From Candidatus Azambacteria bacterium (GTDB lineage Bacteria; Patescibacteriota; Minisyncoccia; GWC2-36-17; M10-OD1-4), in the NCBI GenBank assembly GCA_027048495.1, contig JALTWS010000011.1, positions 173-64,172 on the forward strand: 64,000 nucleotides of DNA, in the 5' to 3' direction. The notes beneath the pieces were generated by a model. That model made no database searches. It was given only the letters and a program-made list of their open reading frames with translations, and had not been told where the DNA came from. The position numbers and the translations under genes are program-made. This document shows, piece by piece, positions 2,911-60,950 of this stretch. The number at the start of each line of letters is the position of its first letter. Positions within the stretch are counted from its first letter, which is position 1.

Positions 2911-4030
2911 ATGGAAGAATTAAAAGAAAAACTAAAAGGTCTAAAAGAAAGGCTCTCAGAAATGAGAGACCGTCTTTGACTACGCAAACAAAAAGCAAAA
3001 AATAAAAGAGCTTGAAAAGGCAACAATGCATCCCGGATTTTGGGATGATGCTTTGTCTGCACAAAAAATAACAACAGAGTTAAATGAGCTTAAAGAAGAG
3101 ATTGCCGTTTTAGATTTTTTTGAGGAAGAGATTTTAAAAATGGAGAGCGATATAAAAGATATAGAAGCTATAGAAAAAGAGAGCGAAAAAAAAGAGCTTG
3201 AACAGGATTTGAAAGATAGAATTTTTAGTTTTCAAAATAAGTTTACAAAAGAAGAGATAAAAATATTTTTTTCTGGAAAGTTTGATAAAAATTATGCTAT
3301 AATATCCATATACTCAGGAGCTGGAGGCCTTGATGCCCAGGACTGGGTTTCAATGCTTTTTAAAATGTACAAAAAGTATGCAGAAAAAAGAGGATGGAAG
3401 GTAAATGTTTTGCATCATCATCAGGGAGAAGAGTCTGGAACAGAAGGTCCTGTAACAAAAAACATAACTTTTGAAGTTTTGGGAAAGTATGCTTACGGAT
3501 ATTTAAAAAAAGAAGCAGGAGTTCATCGTTTGGTAAGAGTTTCTCCTTTTTCTGCGCAAAGCTTAAGGCATACTTCTTTTGCCTATGTTGAGGTTTTGCC
3601 GGAAATTGAAGACGTAAAGAGTATTGATATAAAGCCAGAGGATTTAGAAATAGAAACCTTCAGAGCTTCAGGTCCTGGGGGCCAAAATGTAAACAAAAGA
3701 GAAACCGCTGTAAGGATAAAACACAAGCCAACAAATATAATAGTTTCTTGCCAAAATGAAAGAAACCAATCTGCAAACAAAGAAAAAGCAATGAAGCTTT
3801 TAGCTTCAAAATTAATAGAACAGCTTCAGAAGCAAAAAAAAGAACAAATATCAGAACTTAAAGGGGAAAAAGTTCAAATAGAGTGGGGAAGCCAAATTCG
3901 TTCTTATGTTTTGCATCCATACAAGCTAGTCAAAGACCACAGAACAGAAGTTGAAACTTCACAAGTTCAAGATGTGCTAAGCGGTGATTTAGATATATTT
4001 ATTGAAGCAGAGATAAAAACTTTAAATTAA
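2911..4030 (+). CDS. prfB: Peptide chain release factor 2, with programmed +1 ribosomal frameshift at codon 23
   Basis: ATG 2911 gives [22 protein letters not shown], then in-frame TGA (2977-2979) in the context CTT TGA C. The +1 frame continues [24 protein letters not shown]... through GGQ ([12 protein letters not shown]) and the RF2-specific SPF motif to the stop at 4030. Confidence 0.9.
2971..2980 (+). other. prfB autoregulatory +1 frameshift site (CGT CTT TGA C)
   Basis: The canonical RF2 shifty motif CUU UGA C is seen directly in sequence. Confidence 0.85.
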
Positions 4031-25520: not shown

Positions 25521-25528
25521 ATTTAAAC

Positions 25529-25676
25529 GGAAATTATATGGAAATGAATAGGAAATGAATAGGAAATAATTAGGAAATGAATAGGAAATTAAATTTCCTA
25601 TTCATTTCCTAATTATTTCCGCATAATTTCCATATAATTTCCTATTCATTTCCTAATTATTTCCTATTTAATTTCT
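25529..25676. repeat. GGAAAT/ATTTCC hexamer array B: 6 direct plus 7-8 inverted copies at exact 11-bp spacing
   Basis: GGAAAT starts at 25529, 25540, 25551, 25562, 25573 and 25584; ATTTCC starts at 25593, 25604, 25615, 25626, 25637, 25648, 25659 and (25671, degenerate); symmetry centre about 25591. Confidence 0.9.
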
Positions 25677-26411
25677 CAAGTTGGGGTTCAAATTTAGATA
25701 AAAGTGATGTGCTTTTTACATTTGCTTTTGAAAAAAATTTATATTTTGTTTTTTGAGAAAATTTTTGGTAGTGTTCTTTTTTAAAATTTAAGTTTTGCAA
25801 TTTTAATTTTTTGTTTTTTGAAAATTTTGAGTTTTTTATATTTTTGTTTGTTTTTGTTTTTTGAAAAATAAAAATTAACTTTTGTGTATAACTTTGCAAA
25901 CAAAATTTAGCAAAAAATTATTAAAGAACTTTTATTTTAAAATGCAAATTTGCTTGCAAAGTTATCCACAAAAAAAATTTTAAAAAACAGCAAAGTTTTT
26001 TAGAAAGAAAACAACTTTTAAAAAATCGTTTATTTTTAAGCTTTTTTCTTTTGTATTTGAATATGTTTTTTTGTGGGGTTTGTAATTTATAATGTGTTTG
26101 CGTTTGTTGATAGAAGTTTTTATATTTGCTATAATTTATGTAGCTTTGGGTAAAATGCTTGTAAATGCTTTGGGCTATTGATATACTTTTAAAAAGATGA
26201 TAAAATAGACTTGCAAGCTTGAGGTTCTTTTTGTGTATTTAATTTTTTCTCGGCAATAAATTTTTGAATCGCTGTTTCGCATAGCGGATAGTGGTTCAAA
26301 AATTTGTTGCTGGGTTCTGGTTAAGCGGTTTGAAAAAAGGAAAGAACTTTGAAAATTTAATAGCAACAACAGTAGGTTTTGGAAGAGTCTTGGTTTGAAA
26401 GCAGTCAGTGT

Positions 26412-26556
26412 TAGGAAATATTAGGAAGTTGTTAGGAAATGATTAGGAAATTTCCTGATGCAAACTTCATTAGGAAATTTTCCAAGGAAGGGATTAAAAG
26501 CTTTTGCTTGTTAATTTCCGTTTCCATTTCTTAGAAAAGTAAGTTCGTTTCCTAAA
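26412..26556. repeat. TAGGAAAT array C upstream of the giant surface-protein gene
   Basis: TAGGAA at 26412, 26422, 26433 and 26444 (10-11-bp spacing) and at 26471; inverted (A/G)TTTCC at 26514, 26520 and 26547. Confidence 0.8.
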
Positions 26557-26800
26557 ATAGGTTTTCTAACATTATCACTGAAAAAAGCTTGGAGTTAGCT
26601 GATCTCTTGTTCTGAAAAAATTTGTCAATTTGGTTAATTAGTTTGTTTGATACATAGAGTTAGGTCGATCCCTTTTTTGGGGAACTCGATTCTAATTGTA
26701 TTGAGAGGATAAATCATTAATTAGTATTTACTTTGTAAAGCAACATAATTAAGTAAACTTATCTGCCTTTGGCAGACAAGTTTGCGAAAAAATAATTAAT

Positions 26801-51824: not shown

Positions 51825-52781
51825 ATGAGCAAAAATTTAAAATCAAAAATAAAATATGATGTATCTTTGGCAAACTACAATACTTTTAAAATTGGAGGAA
51901 AAGCAAAAGCATTTGTTCAGGTAGATACAAAAGAAGAATTAAAAGACGCAATTTTATTTGCCAAGCAAAACAATATGCCTTATTACATATTGGGAGGGGG
52001 AACTAATATTTTAGTTTCTGATGATGGTTTTTCTGGTATTGTTATAAAAAACAATATTTCAGATATAAAAATAAATGAAAAAGAATGTTATATGATAGCA
52101 GGATCTGGGATTTCTGTTGGCGCTTTGCTTAATCAGGCAAAAAAGCTTGGATTTTCTGGGCTTGAATGGGCTTGCGGGCTTCCGGGAACTTTGGGAGGAG
52201 CAATTTTTGGAAATGCGGGATCATGCGGTGGTTGTATTGCTGATCTGGTTGAGTTTGTTGATGTTTTGGATCCGGAAACTCTTAAGTTCAAATACATTTT
52301 AAAAGATCAATGCGAGTTCAAATACAGAGATAGCGCCTTTAAAAGAAACGGGCTTTTGATAACCTCAGCAATGCTTTCTTTTAAAAAAGATGATCCTGTA
52401 AATATAATGAATAAGATGGCAGAAAACTTTGCTTTCAGAAGAGGGCATCAGCCGCTTTCTGAAAAAACAGAAGGATGTATTTTTAAAAACATTGACCTTA
52501 AAGAAAAAAAAGATTTTCCAAAAATTTGGAATGACATTTTTGAGTTTTCTGTTTTTGTAAAAAAGAAAATGGTTCCAGCAGGTTTTTTAATAGACAGAGC
52601 GGGGCTTAAAGGATTGTCTTGCGGAGGCGCAAAGGTTTCTCAAAGGCATGCAAATTTTATTTTGACAGAAAAAGGAGCAACTGCAAAAGATGTTTTTGAT
52701 TTAATTTTAAAAATCAAATCTAAAGTTAAAGAAAAATTTTCAGTTGAACTTGAAGAAGAAATTCAATTTTTAGGTTTTTAA
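51825..52781 (+). CDS. murB: UDP-N-acetylenolpyruvoylglucosamine reductase
   Basis: FAD-binding YNTFKIGGKAKAF...ILGGGTNILV, C-terminal MurB domain. Confidence 0.9.
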   Translation: MSKNLKSKIKYDVSLANYNTFKIGGKAKAFVQVDTKEELKDAILFAKQNNMPYYILGGGTNILVSDDGFSGIVIKNNISDIKINEKECYMIAGSGISVGALLNQAKKLGFSGLEWACGLPGTLGGAIFGNAGSCGGCIADLVEFVDVLDPETLKFKYILKDQCEFKYRDSAFKRNGLLITSAMLSFKKDDPVNIMNKMAENFAFRRGHQPLSEKTEGCIFKNIDLKEKKDFPKIWNDIFEFSVFVKKKMVPAGFLIDRAGLKGLSCGGAKVSQRHANFILTEKGATAKDVFDLILKIKSKVKEKFSVELEEEIQFLGF

Positions 52782-52965
52782 TTTTATTTTTTAAAAATAA
52801 AATTAAAAAATAAGTTGTCCACAGTTATTTTTATTTTAATTTGTTGTATAATAAAAATGTAACTTAAAAATTTAATTTTTTATTTTTAAAAAAACAAAGG
52901 TCGGTTAAGTAATATTAAAATTTAATTTTTATTTTTTAAAAAATAAAAATTAAATTAATATTAAT

Positions 52966-53127
52966 ATGCCAGCAAAAAAGAAAAAGACTACAAAAAAAAG
53001 AGCTGTTGCTAAAAAGAAAACAACAGCAAAGAAAAAGACTACAAAAAAAAGAGCAGCAACAAAGAAAAAGACTACAAAAAAAAGAGCTGCTGCTAAAAAG
53101 AAAAAGACAACAAGAAGGAAAAGATAG
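52966..53127 (+). CDS. Small lysine-rich basic protein (histone H1-like / KKxTTKKRAA repeats); not in the ORF track
   Basis: MPAKKKKTTKKRAVAKKKTTAKKKTTKKRAATKKKTTKKRAAAKKKKTTRRKR (53 aa) with four KKKTTKKRAA-type repeats, followed 12 nt later by an intrinsic terminator. Confidence 0.5.
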   Translation: MPAKKKKTTKKRAVAKKKTTAKKKTTKKRAATKKKTTKKRAAAKKKKTTRRKR

Positions 53128-53138
53128 TTTTTTGCAAA

Positions 53139-53175
53139 AACCTCTCCTTAAAAAAGGGGAGGTTTTTGTTTTGGT
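53139..53175 (+). terminator. Intrinsic terminator after the small basic-protein gene
   Basis: AACCTCTCC-ttaaaaaa-GGGGAGGTT (9 bp, one G-U) followed by TTTTGTTTTGG. Confidence 0.7.
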
Positions 53176-53210
53176 TGTGTTTTTTTGTTTTTTGAAGTAT
53201 AAATAATCGT

Positions 53211-54170
53211 ATGTTAACAGACGAAGTAACAATAAAAGTGAGCGGAGGAAAAGGAGGGGACGGTAAAGTTCACTTTGATAATACAAAATCAAAAGAGGGT
53301 GTAGACGGAGGATCTGGCGGAAATGGCGGGTCGGTTTTTTTGGTTGGAGTATCAGATTTAGGAGCCTTGGGACAGTTTAGATTTAAAAAAGAATTTAAAG
53401 CAGAAGATGGTAAAAATGGCCAAGTGAAAAAAAAGCATGGAAGGAATGGAAAGGATATATTTTTAAAAGTTCCTATAGGAACGGTTGTTTTAAACAAAAC
53501 AACAAACAAAAAGCAGGAAGTGTTGGAAGTTGGACAGAAGATATTGGTAGCAAAAGGAGGAGTTGGTGGAAGAGGTAATTTTGAGTTCAAGTCAAGCACA
53601 AACACCGCTCCAAAATATGCGGAGAAAGGGAAAGAAGGTGAAAGTTTTGAAATATTTTTAGAGCTTCAGCTAATAGCGCAAGTTGGTTTTGTTGGCTTGC
53701 CAAACGCTGGCAAATCAAGCATGTTAAATGAACTGACAGAAGCAAGCGTAAAGGTTGCAAACTATAGGTTTACAACTTTGGAGCCAAATCTTGGAGTTTT
53801 AGACGGGCTTATTTTGGCAGATATACCCGGTCTTATTGAAGGCGCATCAGAAGGCAAGGGGCTTGGCATAAAATTTTTAAAGCATATAAAAAGAACGAAG
53901 GTTATAATTCACTTTATATCTTCAGAGTCAGAGAATCTAAAAAAAGACTATCAAACGGTAAAACAAGAGCTTAAAAGGTATGACAAGTCGCTGGCAGAAA
54001 AAGAAAAATTTATATTTTTAACCAAACATGATCTTTTTGATAAAAAAGAAATTGAGAAAAAAATAAACATTTTAAAAGAGGTTTCAAAAAATGATGTTTT
54101 GGCGGTGTCAATATATGACCCTGACAGCATAGAGAAAGCAAGAAAAATAATATTAAAATTTAGTGTTTAA
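53211..54170 (+). CDS. obg: GTPase Obg
   Basis: Gly-rich Obg fold (GGKGGDGKVHF..GGSGGNGGSV), G-domain GLPNAGKSS, DIPGLIEGASEGKGLG. Confidence 0.9.
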   Translation: MLTDEVTIKVSGGKGGDGKVHFDNTKSKEGVDGGSGGNGGSVFLVGVSDLGALGQFRFKKEFKAEDGKNGQVKKKHGRNGKDIFLKVPIGTVVLNKTTNKKQEVLEVGQKILVAKGGVGGRGNFEFKSSTNTAPKYAEKGKEGESFEIFLELQLIAQVGFVGLPNAGKSSMLNELTEASVKVANYRFTTLEPNLGVLDGLILADIPGLIEGASEGKGLGIKFLKHIKRTKVIIHFISSESENLKKDYQTVKQELKRYDKSLAEKEKFIFLTKHDLFDKKEIEKKINILKEVSKNDVLAVSIYDPDSIEKARKIILKFSV

Positions 54171-60224: not shown

Positions 60225-60290
60225 AGGGGGTGTTTTTGTGTTTGGGGCGGTGGGTTGACTTTTTTTTGTTGTTTTGTATACTTTAAGCTA

Positions 60291-60416
60291 AACAAACAAC
60301 AAACCGTAGACAAGAGGCATAAAAATAAGACCTCTTTAGGTTGGCAACAAGCTTTTGTTGTTTTTTGTCTACGGCCTTAAAGGTCGTTTTATTTTTTAAA
60401 AACAAAGTATAATTTT
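60291..60416 (+). promoter_or_regulatory. rplJ leader (candidate L10(L12)4 autoregulatory leader) with upstream sigma70-like promoter
   Basis: TTGACT-17-TATACT at 60255-60282. The leader contains the 10-bp inverted repeat CCGTAGACAA (60304) and TTGTCTACGG (60366) enclosing about 50 nt, then GGCCTTAAAGGTC. Confidence 0.45.
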
Positions 60417-60950
60417 ATGGCGTTAACAAGAAAACAAAAAGAAGAAATAGTAGTATCCGTAAAAGAGAAGCTAAAAAGCCAAAAAGCGGCTGTTTTTACA
60501 GATTTTACAGGCCTTTCGGTTTCTAAAATGCAGGAGCTCAAAAAAAAATTAAAAGACAACAATGCTGAGTACAAAGTTGTCAAAAAAAACCTCCTTGCAA
60601 AAGCAACAGAAGATCTTAAAATAGAAGGTCTTAATCCAAAAGCTTTTGAAGGTTCTGTTGGAATTGCTTTTTCTTATGATGATGAGGTTGTTCCAGCAAA
60701 GATTGTAAGTGAATTTGCAAAGCAAGACGGAATAGGGGAGTTTAAAATTATCGGGGGAATTTTGGAAAACAAGGCTGTTTCTGTTGATGAAGTTGTGGCT
60801 TTGGCAAAGCTACCTTCAAAAGAACAGCTTTTGGCAAATTTACTTGCTCAAATGAATGCTCCTGTTTCTGGATTTGTAAATGTTCTTGCTGGAAATTTGA
60901 GGAATTTAGTTTATGTTTTAAATTCTATAAAAGAAGCAAAAGCAAAATAA
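60417..60950 (+). CDS. rplJ: 50S ribosomal protein L10
   Basis: MALTRKQKEEIV...AVFTDFTGLSV..., 177 aa, upstream of rplL. Confidence 0.9.
   Translation: MALTRKQKEEIVVSVKEKLKSQKAAVFTDFTGLSVSKMQELKKKLKDNNAEYKVVKKNLLAKATEDLKIEGLNPKAFEGSVGIAFSYDDEVVPAKIVSEFAKQDGIGEFKIIGGILENKAVSVDEVVALAKLPSKEQLLANLLAQMNAPVSGFVNVLAGNLRNLVYVLNSIKEAKAK

What the first reader, a model, noticed from the sequence alone, without database searches (positions are those of the whole stretch)
52966..53127. Unannotated 53-aa lysine-rich histone-H1-like protein gene with its own terminator
The frame MPAKKKKTTKKRAVAKKKTTAKKKTTKKRAATKKKTTKKRAAAKKKKTTRRKR contains four KKKTTKKRAA-type repeats reminiscent of bacterial histone-like Hc1/AlgP tails. 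It ends 12 nt before a clean intrinsic terminator (53139-53175). It is below the ORF-track length cut-off, and the track instead lists an alternative Q/R-rich frame (53006-53206) that would read through the terminator stem. It sits in an extremely AT-rich palindromic region (ATTTTTTAAAAAAT motifs) between murB and obg.
Basis: seen in the sequence. Interest (0 to 1): 0.5.

Follow-up and report, generated by a model that had tools for sequence, protein, structure and literature searches.

The report
Tiny lysine-rich histone-tail-like gene in Parcubacteria
A 53-codon gene between murB and obg in an uncultured Parcubacteria genome is real and conserved, and encodes a pure polycation that resembles the DNA-binding repeat region of bacterial histone-H1-like proteins; it is a modest new variant of a known kind, and its function is untested.

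Summary
The ORF is at 52966-53127(+) as described, and a strong intrinsic terminator follows it. In this sequence alone the open frame is not remarkable, because the DNA is T-poor (shuffle P about 0.11). Comparison settles it. Three more lineages, every fetched relative whose Obg is at least 69% identical, carry a 73-78-aa lysine-rich ORF in the same murB-X-obg slot. All begin MP[AV]KKK and end with threonine, one further residue, then four K/R (plus one extra R in one lineage). All have 55-60% K+R and no acidic residue, and each has its own terminator with a different stem sequence. A 40-nt promoter-like block upstream is almost invariant. The rival Q/R frame has 7-12 stops in the relatives. 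AAG codons are placed so as to break up poly(A) runs. Basic triplets recur every 5-6 residues, as in the pentamer repeats of chlamydial Hc2 and Bordetella BpH1. The only family matches, to H1-like models, are far below threshold, and no globular or flanking domain exists. So it works-like, but is not a member of, Hc2, Hc1, AlgP or H1. Most likely it is a small nucleoid-associated DNA-condensing protein. Ribosome/RNA or polyphosphate binding is not excluded. A public gene call already exists, so it is not strictly unannotated.

The parts
52813..52852 (+). Conserved promoter-like block AGTTGTCCACAGTTATTTTTATTTTAATTTGTTGTATAAT. It holds TTGTCCACA (52815-52823), which is DnaA-box-like and -35-like, and a perfect TATAAT (52847-52852).
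   Evidence: It is almost invariant in four lineages whose flanking MurB and Obg proteins are only 61-72% identical. It is the only such site in the window. Promoter function and the transcription start are inferred. The spacing between TTGTCC and TATAAT is 26 nt, which is not canonical.
52853..52965 (+). Probable 5' leader, almost pure A/T. It holds the conserved 8-mer AAAGGTCG (52896-52903), a 50-nt-spaced direct repeat (52859-52898 and 52909-52948), and a perfect 19-nt-arm palindrome (52919-52956) that ends 9 nt before the ATG. There is no Shine-Dalgarno sequence.
   Evidence: fold -21.5 kcal/mol, z = -3.8. AAAGGTCG is present in the leaders of all four orthologs. Only 5 of 45 genes in the window have an SD-like motif, so its absence here is normal.
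52966..53127 (+). Coding sequence of 53 codons plus TAG. The product is a polycation of about 6.1 kDa with net charge +30, 57% K+R and no D/E or aromatic residues (one Met, one Val).
   Evidence: Orthologs lie at L003 3629-3865, L026 2464-2685 and L027 2607-2840. A gene call exists in the public record.
53134..53192 (+). Intrinsic terminator. The 16-bp hairpin at 53134-53169 (GCAAAAACCTCTCCTT/AAGGGGAGGTTTTTGT) is followed by a T-rich tract.
   Evidence: (-23 kcal/mol, z = -4.9). The three orthologs have terminators in the same position with different stem sequences (z = -5.2 to -6.4).

Best explanation
This is a genuine monocistronic gene of one Parcubacteria (candidate phyla radiation) clade. 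It is transcribed from its own strongly conserved promoter region and ended by its own intrinsic terminator. It is translated without a Shine-Dalgarno sequence, as most genes of this genome are, into a 53-aa (73-78 aa in relatives) low-complexity polycation. The protein consists only of K/R triplets separated by two or three small neutral residues (T, A, V, P).

The proposed mechanism is inferred. The free protein is disordered because of charge repulsion. On meeting DNA it neutralises backbone phosphates and folds towards a helix, and it compacts or coats the AT-rich chromosome. That is how the C-terminal tail of histone H1, protamines and the pentamer-repeat region of chlamydial Hc2 or Bordetella BpH1 act. 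Repeat number and sequence turn over quickly between lineages, while the two termini, the charge density and the expression signals are held constant.

Shown here: the gene is real, the frame is right, and its architecture and conservation are as described. Inferred: DNA is the ligand and compaction is the role.
For: Source and neighbours: the contig is a Parcubacteria MAG, between murB and obg.

Orthologs: they occupy the same murB-X-obg slot in every fetched relative with Obg at least 69% identical. They share the N-terminus MP[AV]KKK and a C-terminus of T, one further residue (T, V or I), then four K/R, with one extra R in L026. K+R is 55-60% and there are no acidic residues.

Frame: the K frame is open in all four lineages. 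Shuffle P for no in-frame stop is 0.002-0.005 in each relative. The other + frames carry 6-12 stops in the relatives. Codon-usage score is 26.3 bits against 2.9 and -4.6.

Poly(A) avoidance: AAG codons are positioned so that the longest A-run is 6-8 nt. With lysine codons drawn at the flanking genes' usage the expected longest run is 8.7-12.8 nt (P 0.000-0.083). With the same AAG count permuted it is 9.0-11.2 nt (P 0.000-0.058). This fits selection against slippage on poly(A).

Expression signals: all four lineages have terminators with different stems, and the promoter-like block is almost invariant.

Resemblance to H1-like proteins: charge has a 5-6-residue periodicity (lag-5 autocorrelation 0.41-0.91, P <= 0.002). 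This matches the pentamer/hexamer build of Hc2, which also varies in repeat number between conserved flanks (PMC2848022). The best family matches, and the only ones with E below 0.1, are to H1-like DNA-binding models: Pfam HC2 at E 2e-4 and NCBIfam NF038053 at E 0.075 (NF038052 at E 0.48-1.2); a few unrelated models appear at E 0.7-10. A profile of the four proteins retrieved only two proteins, both tagged PF07382. AlphaFold2 in single-sequence mode gives one continuous helix over residues 4-52 with mean pLDDT 87. That is compatible with ligand-induced helix formation, which I recall from my own knowledge for the H1 C-terminal tail.
Against: There is no expression, proteomic or binding data. 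Every family match is far below its curated cut-off: 9-22 bits against 40 for PF07382, and 9-13 bits against 80 or 135 for the NCBIfam models. The window protein itself matches nothing. The resemblance may therefore be purely compositional. A polycation will bind any polyanion, including rRNA, mRNA and polyphosphate, so the sequence cannot identify DNA as the ligand. The gene was found only in a narrow clade. Its position beside obg, and the A/K-rich tails that Parcubacteria add to ribosomal protein uS19 (PMC9297842), point equally to the ribosome. The single-sequence AlphaFold helix is typical of K/A-rich sequences and is weak evidence.
Confidence: 0.5

Rival explanations
1. It is a ribosome- or RNA-associated mini-protein. 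The polycation would bind rRNA, as an extra small basic ribosomal protein or an assembly or RNA chaperone, and would be functionally linked to the neighbouring ribosome-assembly GTPase Obg.
For: The gene lies immediately upstream of obg in all four lineages. From my own knowledge, obg in many bacteria follows the ribosomal protein genes rplU and rpmA. Parcubacteria have specifically acquired an alanine- and lysine-rich C-terminal region of about 25 aa on uS19 (PMC9297842), so A/K-rich segments are used on their ribosomes. Size and charge resemble very small basic ribosomal proteins (my knowledge).
Against: The gene has its own promoter block and a strong terminator, so it is not built to be co-transcribed with obg. 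There is no sequence match to any ribosomal protein family or to any chain in the PDB, ribosome structures included. Repeat number and sequence vary freely between close relatives, which is unusual for a protein with a fixed rRNA pocket. The murB-X-obg synteny is confined to one clade.
Confidence: 0.22
2. It is a polyphosphate- or other polyanion-associated protein. Like the H1-like protein AlgP of Pseudomonas, it would organise polyphosphate granules, or buffer cellular polyanions, rather than structure DNA.
For: H1-like lysine-rich repeat proteins can act on polyphosphate granules (AlgP, PMC9239181; review PMC11894788; both listed, abstracts only read). Charge density here is very high, at 55-60%.
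Against: No AlgP-type N-terminal domain or KPAA repeats are present, and there is no family match. Nothing in the window links the gene to polyphosphate metabolism. Whether this organism makes polyphosphate is unknown.
Confidence: 0.08
3. It is not a functional protein gene. The ORF would be a by-product of an A-rich simple-sequence repeat in a very AT-rich intergenic region. The functional unit, if any, would be a polypurine RNA or a DNA element, or an antisense ORF.
For: In the window alone the open frame is not significant (P about 0.11). The DNA is 62% A and a tandem repeat. Antisense frames -0 and -2 are also free of stops in all four lineages, and the in-phase antisense frame scores 29.4 bits on codon usage. 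None of the four proteins is present in the 15-billion-protein collection.
Against: The ATG CCA G start, the basic C-terminus, the frame and the stop-then-terminator layout are conserved in four diverged lineages, while the repeats between them have been remodelled in multiples of three bases. Poly(A) runs are avoided at synonymous sites. Open antisense frames are expected from a T-poor sense strand. They have no start codon in the window (-0 frame) and none giving at least 30 aa in L003, only TTG starts elsewhere, and one runs into obg. All 29 long ORFs in the window are on the + strand. There is no significant Rfam match.
Confidence: 0.07
4. It is an exported polycationic effector. As a small cationic peptide, it would be delivered to the host cell of this presumably episymbiotic bacterium, with an antimicrobial or cell-penetrating action.
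For: The product is short and extremely cationic. From my own knowledge, candidate phyla radiation bacteria are often episymbionts. One profile hit (P0003) carries a similar repeat behind a signal-peptide-like N-terminus.
Against: There is no signal peptide, no hydrophobic or aromatic residue and no amphipathic pattern, because the charges are distributed all around the predicted helix. No secretion or immunity gene lies next to it.
Confidence: 0.03

Closest known systems
Chlamydial Hc2 (HctB), Bordetella BpH1 and Burkholderiales 'histone H1-like DNA-binding protein' (Pfam PF07382 HC2; NCBIfam NF038052, NF038053)
   Same: All consist of consecutive lysine/arginine-containing pentamers (with occasional hexamers) whose other residues are A, V, T or P. 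The repeat region has no acidic residues. Repeat number and order vary between strains or species while the flanks stay conserved (PMC2848022). These are the best-scoring models for the orthologs and the only ones with E below 0.1.
   Different: This protein is 53-78 aa, against 165-237 aa. It has three basic residues per unit instead of two. It lacks the conserved 24-aa N-terminal region and the C-terminal domain. Scores are far below thresholds (at most 22 bits against 40). The phylum is unrelated (Parcubacteria). Common ancestry cannot be shown.
Chlamydial Hc1 (HctA, PF07432) and Pseudomonas AlgP
   Same: Both have lysine-rich, acid-free, H1-tail-like C-terminal regions that bind polyanions: DNA for Hc1, and the nucleoid or polyphosphate granules for AlgP (PMC9239181).
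   Different: Both have a structured or conserved N-terminal domain that is absent here. Hc1 has irregular charge spacing (PMC2848022). AlgP uses KPAA-type repeats (my knowledge). There is no HMM match.
C-terminal tail of eukaryotic linker histone H1, and protamines
   Same: Composition is K/A/T/P-rich with no acidic residues. Both are disordered polycations that condense DNA by charge neutralisation (my knowledge).
   Different: There is no winged-helix globular domain (PF00538 is not matched), and 53 aa cannot hold one. The host is bacterial. This is analogy only.
Very small basic bacterial ribosomal proteins (for example bTHX and bS22) and the A/K-rich tail of Parcubacteria uS19
   Same: Size and extreme basicity are similar. 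A/K-rich segments occur on Parcubacteria ribosomal proteins (PMC9297842).
   Different: There is no sequence match to any ribosomal family or PDB chain. The gene has a repetitive, length-variable architecture.

Membership tests
Hc2/HctB-BpH1 (Pfam PF07382; NCBIfam NF038052, NF038053) | The score reaches the curated family threshold. | tested here: not met
   The window protein has no hit even at E <= 10. The orthologs score 9.4-22 bits against a cut-off of 40 for PF07382, and 9-13 bits against 80 or 135 for the NCBIfam models.
Hc2/HctB-BpH1 (Pfam PF07382; NCBIfam NF038052, NF038053) | Consecutive basic pentamers (with hexamers) whose other residues are A, V, T or P, and no acidic residues in the repeat region. 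| tested here: met
   Lag-5/6 charge autocorrelation is 0.41-0.91 and shuffle P <= 0.002 in all four proteins. There are no D/E residues. However, there are three basic residues per unit rather than two (PMC2848022).
Hc2/HctB-BpH1 (Pfam PF07382; NCBIfam NF038052, NF038053) | Repeat-number variation between conserved flanking regions. | tested here: met
   Lengths are 53, 73, 77 and 78 aa, with a conserved MP[AV]KKK start and a conserved basic C-terminus.
Hc2/HctB-BpH1 (Pfam PF07382; NCBIfam NF038052, NF038053) | Conserved non-repeat N-terminal region of about 24 aa and a C-terminal domain, with total length about 165-237 aa. | tested here: not met
   The protein is repeats only, 53-78 aa long. 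The Hc2 features are taken from PMC2848022.
Hc2/HctB-BpH1 (Pfam PF07382; NCBIfam NF038052, NF038053) | Binds and condenses DNA. | not testable with these tools
   This needs a gel-shift assay, nucleoid condensation assays or localisation.
Linker histone H1/H5 (PF00538) | Winged-helix globular domain between basic tails. | tested here: not met
   There is no Pfam hit. The model of the 53-aa protein is a single helix.
Chlamydial Hc1/HctA (PF07432) | Conserved N-terminal domain followed by a lysine-rich C-terminus. | tested here: not met
   Neither the window protein nor the orthologs give a Pfam hit. No non-repeat domain is present.
AlgP (Pseudomonas H1-like protein) | N-terminal domain plus long KPAA-type repeat tail. 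| tested here: not met
   There are no KPAA repeats. The window protein has one proline and the orthologs have 1-5. There is no NCBIfam or Pfam match. The feature definition comes from my own knowledge and PMC9239181.
Small basic ribosomal proteins | Sequence match to a ribosomal protein family or to a chain in a solved ribosome. | tested here: not met
   Pfam, NCBIfam and PDB sequence searches are all empty. Physical association with ribosomes is not testable here.

The most novel reading that the evidence does not exclude
A repeat-only, protamine-like mini-histone would be the main chromosome-compacting protein of a clade of ultra-small Parcubacteria. It would be expressed from an unusually constrained promoter that carries a DnaA-box-like TTGTCCACA, so that nucleoid compaction is coupled to the replication cycle. 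It would belong to a class of proteins that is systematically invisible. Such ORFs fall below ORF length cut-offs, appear to be missing from protein catalogues (none of the four orthologs is in a 15-billion-protein collection), and are suppressed by low-complexity filters. They would also be undetectable by tryptic proteomics, because every tryptic peptide is at most about 5 residues long.
Probability: 0.12. Interest if true: 0.6.

Novelty: new variant of a known kind. Interest (0 to 1): 0.35.

Why it matters
Candidate phyla radiation bacteria have tiny cells and reduced genomes, and almost nothing is known about how they package DNA. A conserved, strongly signalled gene for a repeat-only H1-tail-like polycation is a concrete candidate that can be made synthetically, since 53 aa is within reach of peptide synthesis.

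It also illustrates a blind spot. The protein is too short for many ORF tracks, is absent from the large protein collection queried here, scores zero in HMM searches because of composition correction, and would yield no usable tryptic peptides. If such mini-polycations are common in AT-rich reduced genomes, they are being missed.

On present evidence, however, it is an incremental addition to the known class of bacterial lysine-rich H1-like proteins, confined to a narrow clade and without functional data.

Tried and rejected
Homology searches. phmmer of the 53-aa protein found nothing against the 5.8-billion-cluster set, against 1.84 billion representatives or against PDB sequences. These searches are uninformative. 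HMMER corrects for composition, and exact look-ups show that even the true orthologs are not in the protein collection.

Alternative + frame 53006-53206: rejected, because it has 7-12 stops in the orthologs and reads through the terminator.

Antisense ORFs: rejected as mirror artefacts of a polypurine sense strand.

Replication origin, suggested by the AT-rich palindromes and the TTGTCCACA DnaA-box-like site: rejected. GC skew is positive in every 2-kb bin with no switch. There is only one exact box, and the count at one mismatch (10) is below the chance expectation (13.6).

Structured RNA or riboswitch in the leader or the gene: there is no credible Rfam match; the best is LhrC on the opposite strand at 30 bits against a threshold of 110.

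Pairing of the conserved AAAGGTCG with the start-codon region: it appears in the window's minimum-energy fold, but it uses a second GG that the orthologs lack, so it is not conserved.

K-rich ORFs beside obg in more distant relatives (Obg at most 63% identical): none were found, but murB-obg synteny is already lost there, so this says nothing about presence elsewhere in those genomes.

Contexts of the two profile hits P0003 and P0004: short contigs that told me nothing.

Fold search of the AlphaFold model: not run, because a single helix gives meaningless matches.

Full report
**1. What is in the sequence**

ATG is at 52966 and TAG at 53125-53127 on the + strand, and the product is MPAKKKKTTKKRAVAKKKTTAKKKTTKKRAATKKKTTKKRAAAKKKKTTRRKR.

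The DNA is 62% A and only 7% T. It is internally repeated with periods of 15 and 36 nt, both multiples of three, and as three 60-nt copies.

Six bases after the stop codon a 16-bp hairpin begins (53134-53169), followed by a T-rich tract. It folds at -23 kcal/mol, z = -4.9 against dinucleotide shuffles.

The competing 66-aa TTG frame (53006-53206) and a 118-aa antisense ORF (52936-53292) are also present.

The flanking genes are murB (51825-52781) and obg (53211-54170), by Pfam content of the public gene calls.

The window comes from a Parcubacteria (candidate phyla radiation) metagenome-assembled genome, GCA_015491195.1, contig WFWJ01000055.1. A 53-residue gene is already called at this position there, without a name or Pfam hit.

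**2. Is it more than chance?**

Taken alone, no. Because the stretch is so T-poor, 10.8% of mononucleotide shuffles also lack an in-frame stop. The evidence comes from comparison.

I fetched loci encoding relatives of the neighbouring Obg from the genome and metagenome collections. I scanned all of them in six frames for K/R-rich stretches.

Every locus whose Obg is at least 69% identical keeps the murB-X-obg arrangement and has a lysine-rich ORF in slot X. These are L003 (identical to L025), L026 and L027, so there are three further lineages:
- L003, 78 aa: MPVKKKTTRKKAAPKRK...KKKTVKRKK
- L026, 73 aa: MPAKKKVTKRKVAKKKVAKKK...KKKTIKRKKR
- L027, 77 aa: MPVKKKAKKRVVKKAAPKRK...KKRTVKRKR

All four proteins share the following:
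- the start MP[AV]KKK, encoded by ATG CCA G..
- a C-terminus of T, one further residue (T, V or I), then four K/R, plus one extra R in L026
- 55-60% K+R
- no acidic residue at all

In each relative the probability of an open frame by composition is 0.002-0.005. The K frame is the only + strand frame open in all four. The Q/R frame favoured by the ORF track has 7, 12 and 8 stops in the relatives. Using codon usage learnt from the window's 29 long ORFs, the K frame scores 26.3 bits against 2.9 and -4.6 for the other two + frames.

The antisense frames are free of stops in all four lineages, but that is the expected mirror of a T-poor sense strand. The -0 frame has no start codon in the window, and no antisense ORF of at least 30 aa spans the gene in L003 (the only one nearby overlaps just its first 43 nt). 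Only TTG starts occur elsewhere, and one antisense ORF runs through the terminator into obg. All long ORFs of the window lie on the + strand.

A further sign of translation-level selection is that lysine codons are not placed at random. AAG interrupts AAA so that the longest A-run is 6-8 nt. With lysine codons drawn at the flanking genes' usage, the expected longest run is 8.7-12.8 nt (P = 0.000-0.083). With the same AAG count permuted, it is 9.0-11.2 nt (P = 0.000-0.058). This fits avoidance of slippage on poly(A) tracts.

**3. Expression signals**

All four lineages have a strong intrinsic terminator directly after the stop codon, with different stem sequences (z = -4.9 to -6.4). The structure is conserved but the sequence is not.

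A 40-nt block lies 105-170 nt upstream of the ATG: AGTTGTCCACAGTTATTTTTATTTTAATTTGTTGTATAAT, window 52813-52852. It is almost invariant in all four. The flanking proteins are only 61-72% identical, and the rest of the intergenic DNA cannot be aligned.

The block ends in a perfect TATAAT and starts with TTGTCCACA. That 9-mer matches the DnaA-box consensus known from my own knowledge, and is also -35-like. The TTGTCC-to-TATAAT spacing is 26 nt, so the promoter architecture is not canonical, and the transcription start is inferred only.

The block occurs once in the window. The region is not a replication origin, because GC skew is positive in every 2-kb bin with no switch.

No Shine-Dalgarno sequence precedes the ATG, but only 5 of 45 genes in the window have one. 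An 8-mer, AAAGGTCG, is conserved in the otherwise pure-A/T leader of all four. It remains unexplained.

**4. What the protein looks like**

The product is about 6.1 kDa, with calculated pI about 12 and net charge +30.

Basic triplets recur every 5-6 residues. Lag-5/6 charge autocorrelation is 0.41-0.91 and shuffle P <= 0.002. L026 is a strict pentamer repeat, while the window protein alternates 5 and 6 residues, giving an 11-residue super-period.

The neutral positions are T and A in the window protein but V, A and P in the relatives. What is conserved is therefore the charge pattern, not the residues.

Repeat units differ between lineages and are homogenised within each, which indicates ongoing repeat turnover.

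AlphaFold2 without an alignment gives a single helix over residues 4-52 with mean pLDDT 87. This is common for K/A-rich sequences and is weak evidence. A +30 helix would need a polyanion partner.

**5. Comparison with known families**

The window protein matches nothing in Pfam or NCBIfam, even at E <= 10. The longer orthologs give only sub-threshold matches:
- Pfam HC2 (PF07382, 'Histone H1-like nucleoprotein HC2'): best E 2e-4, 22 bits against a cut-off of 40
- NCBIfam NF038053 and NF038052 (histone H1-like DNA-binding protein, Burkholderia type and Hc2): 9-13 bits against 80 or 135
- a few unrelated models at E 0.7-10 (ASFV_J13L, DNA_meth_N, Rpf, valine-tRNA ligase, sucB), which I take as noise

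A profile built from the four proteins retrieved two database proteins, both tagged PF07382.

Klint et al. (PMC2848022) describe Hc2 as follows:
- consecutive pentamers, with one hexamer per 36-aa element
- two basic residues per pentamer, plus A/V/T/P
- no acidic residues in the DNA-binding part
- repeat-number variation between conserved flanks
- relatives in Bordetella (BpH1) and Burkholderiales

The present protein shares the pentamer/hexamer build, the residue palette and the repeat turnover. It differs in several ways:
- it is three times shorter
- it has three basic residues per unit
- it has no non-repeat N- or C-terminal region
- it fails every family threshold

It also lacks the globular domain of H1 and the N-terminal domains of Hc1 and AlgP.

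The verdict is that it plausibly works like the repeat region of Hc2/BpH1 or the tail of H1, but it cannot be filed as a member of any of these families. I found no paper that describes such a protein in candidate phyla radiation bacteria.

**6. Mechanism and rivals**

The best-supported reading (confidence about 0.5) is a small nucleoid-associated polycation that neutralises and compacts DNA. That the gene is real and translated I rate at about 0.9. That the ligand is DNA is inference from analogy.

The main rival (0.22) is association with the ribosome or with RNA. The gene sits beside obg, and Parcubacteria add an A/K-rich tail to uS19 (PMC9297842). Against this, the gene is a separate transcription unit, its length varies freely, and it matches no ribosomal protein or PDB chain.

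Polyphosphate binding in the manner of AlgP (PMC9239181), a spurious ORF, and an exported cationic peptide are less likely, for the reasons given in the rival entries.

**7. A database caveat**

Exact look-ups show that none of the four proteins is in the 15-billion-sequence protein collection, although a gene call exists on the contig. The empty homology searches therefore reflect both HMMER's composition correction and the absence of such ORFs from the catalogue. They are not evidence that the family is tiny. Its true distribution is unknown. I can show it only in one clade.

**8. Verdict**

This is a real, conserved, independently transcribed gene for a repeat-only H1-tail/Hc2-like polycation in a Parcubacteria clade. 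It is a new variant of a known kind, of moderate-to-low interest (0.35) until a ligand is shown.

The unusually constrained promoter block with its DnaA-box-like site, and the near-invisibility of such proteins to standard pipelines and to tryptic proteomics, are the features most worth following up.

Noticed in passing
window 52813-52852; L003 3420-3460; L026 2296-2336; L027 2408-2448; L066 475-494: A 40-nt promoter-like block containing TTGTCCACA is almost invariant across four lineages. That is far more conserved than the flanking protein genes (61-72% aa identity). Its first 20 nt (GTTGTCCACAGTTATTTTTA) also occur once in a phage contig (IMGVR_UViG_3300020045_001946), directly upstream of a canonical TTGACC / -10 promoter. 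This may be a shared regulator site (DnaA?) or chance.
   Followed up: partly
window 52896-52903 (also L003 about 3509, L026 about 2377, L027 about 2530): The 8-mer AAAGGTCG is conserved in the otherwise A/T-only 5' leader of all four orthologs. Its distance from the promoter block and from the ATG varies. No conserved pairing partner was found. A second copy at 60379-60386, before rplJ, is within chance expectation.
   Followed up: partly
whole window: All 29 ORFs of at least 250 aa are on the + strand, and GC skew is positive in every 2-kb bin. This indicates strong co-orientation of genes on one replichore. Only 5 of 45 ORFs of at least 150 aa have a Shine-Dalgarno-like motif.
   Followed up: partly
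window 53198-53211: obg has a -10-like TATAAA that ends 7 nt before its ATG and only about 30 nt after the upstream terminator. Its mRNA may therefore be leaderless or have a very short leader.
   Followed up: no
window 60286-60402: A divergent ribosomal protein L10 leader lies in front of an rplJ-like ORF (60417-60950). It scores 31.5 bits, E 0.0014, below Rfam's gathering score of 44, so the default scan misses it.
   Followed up: partly
window 25521-26800: A 1.28-kb stretch has no + strand ORF of at least 40 aa. It has the lowest GC in the window and lies upstream of a 1155-aa repetitive surface-type protein gene. It contains a consensus TTATCCACA at 25962-25970.
   Followed up: no
L003 about 3223-3256 and 3322-3358: In the closest relative, two G+C-containing hairpins with the same TGACGACNGTCA centre are inserted between murB and the conserved promoter block. 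They are absent from the window and may be a small repeated palindromic element.
   Followed up: no
window 52775-52809 and 52919-52956: Two perfect AT-only palindromes are present. One has 17-nt arms and starts within the murB stop codon region. The other has 19-nt arms and ends 9 nt before the ATG of the lysine-rich gene. Neither is conserved in sequence in the relatives. The second could occlude the translation start region.
   Followed up: partly
protein collection look-ups: None of the four lysine-rich orthologs is present in the 15-billion-protein collection, although their contigs are public and one carries a gene call. Short low-complexity ORFs seem to be systematically missing from the protein catalogue.
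   Followed up: partly
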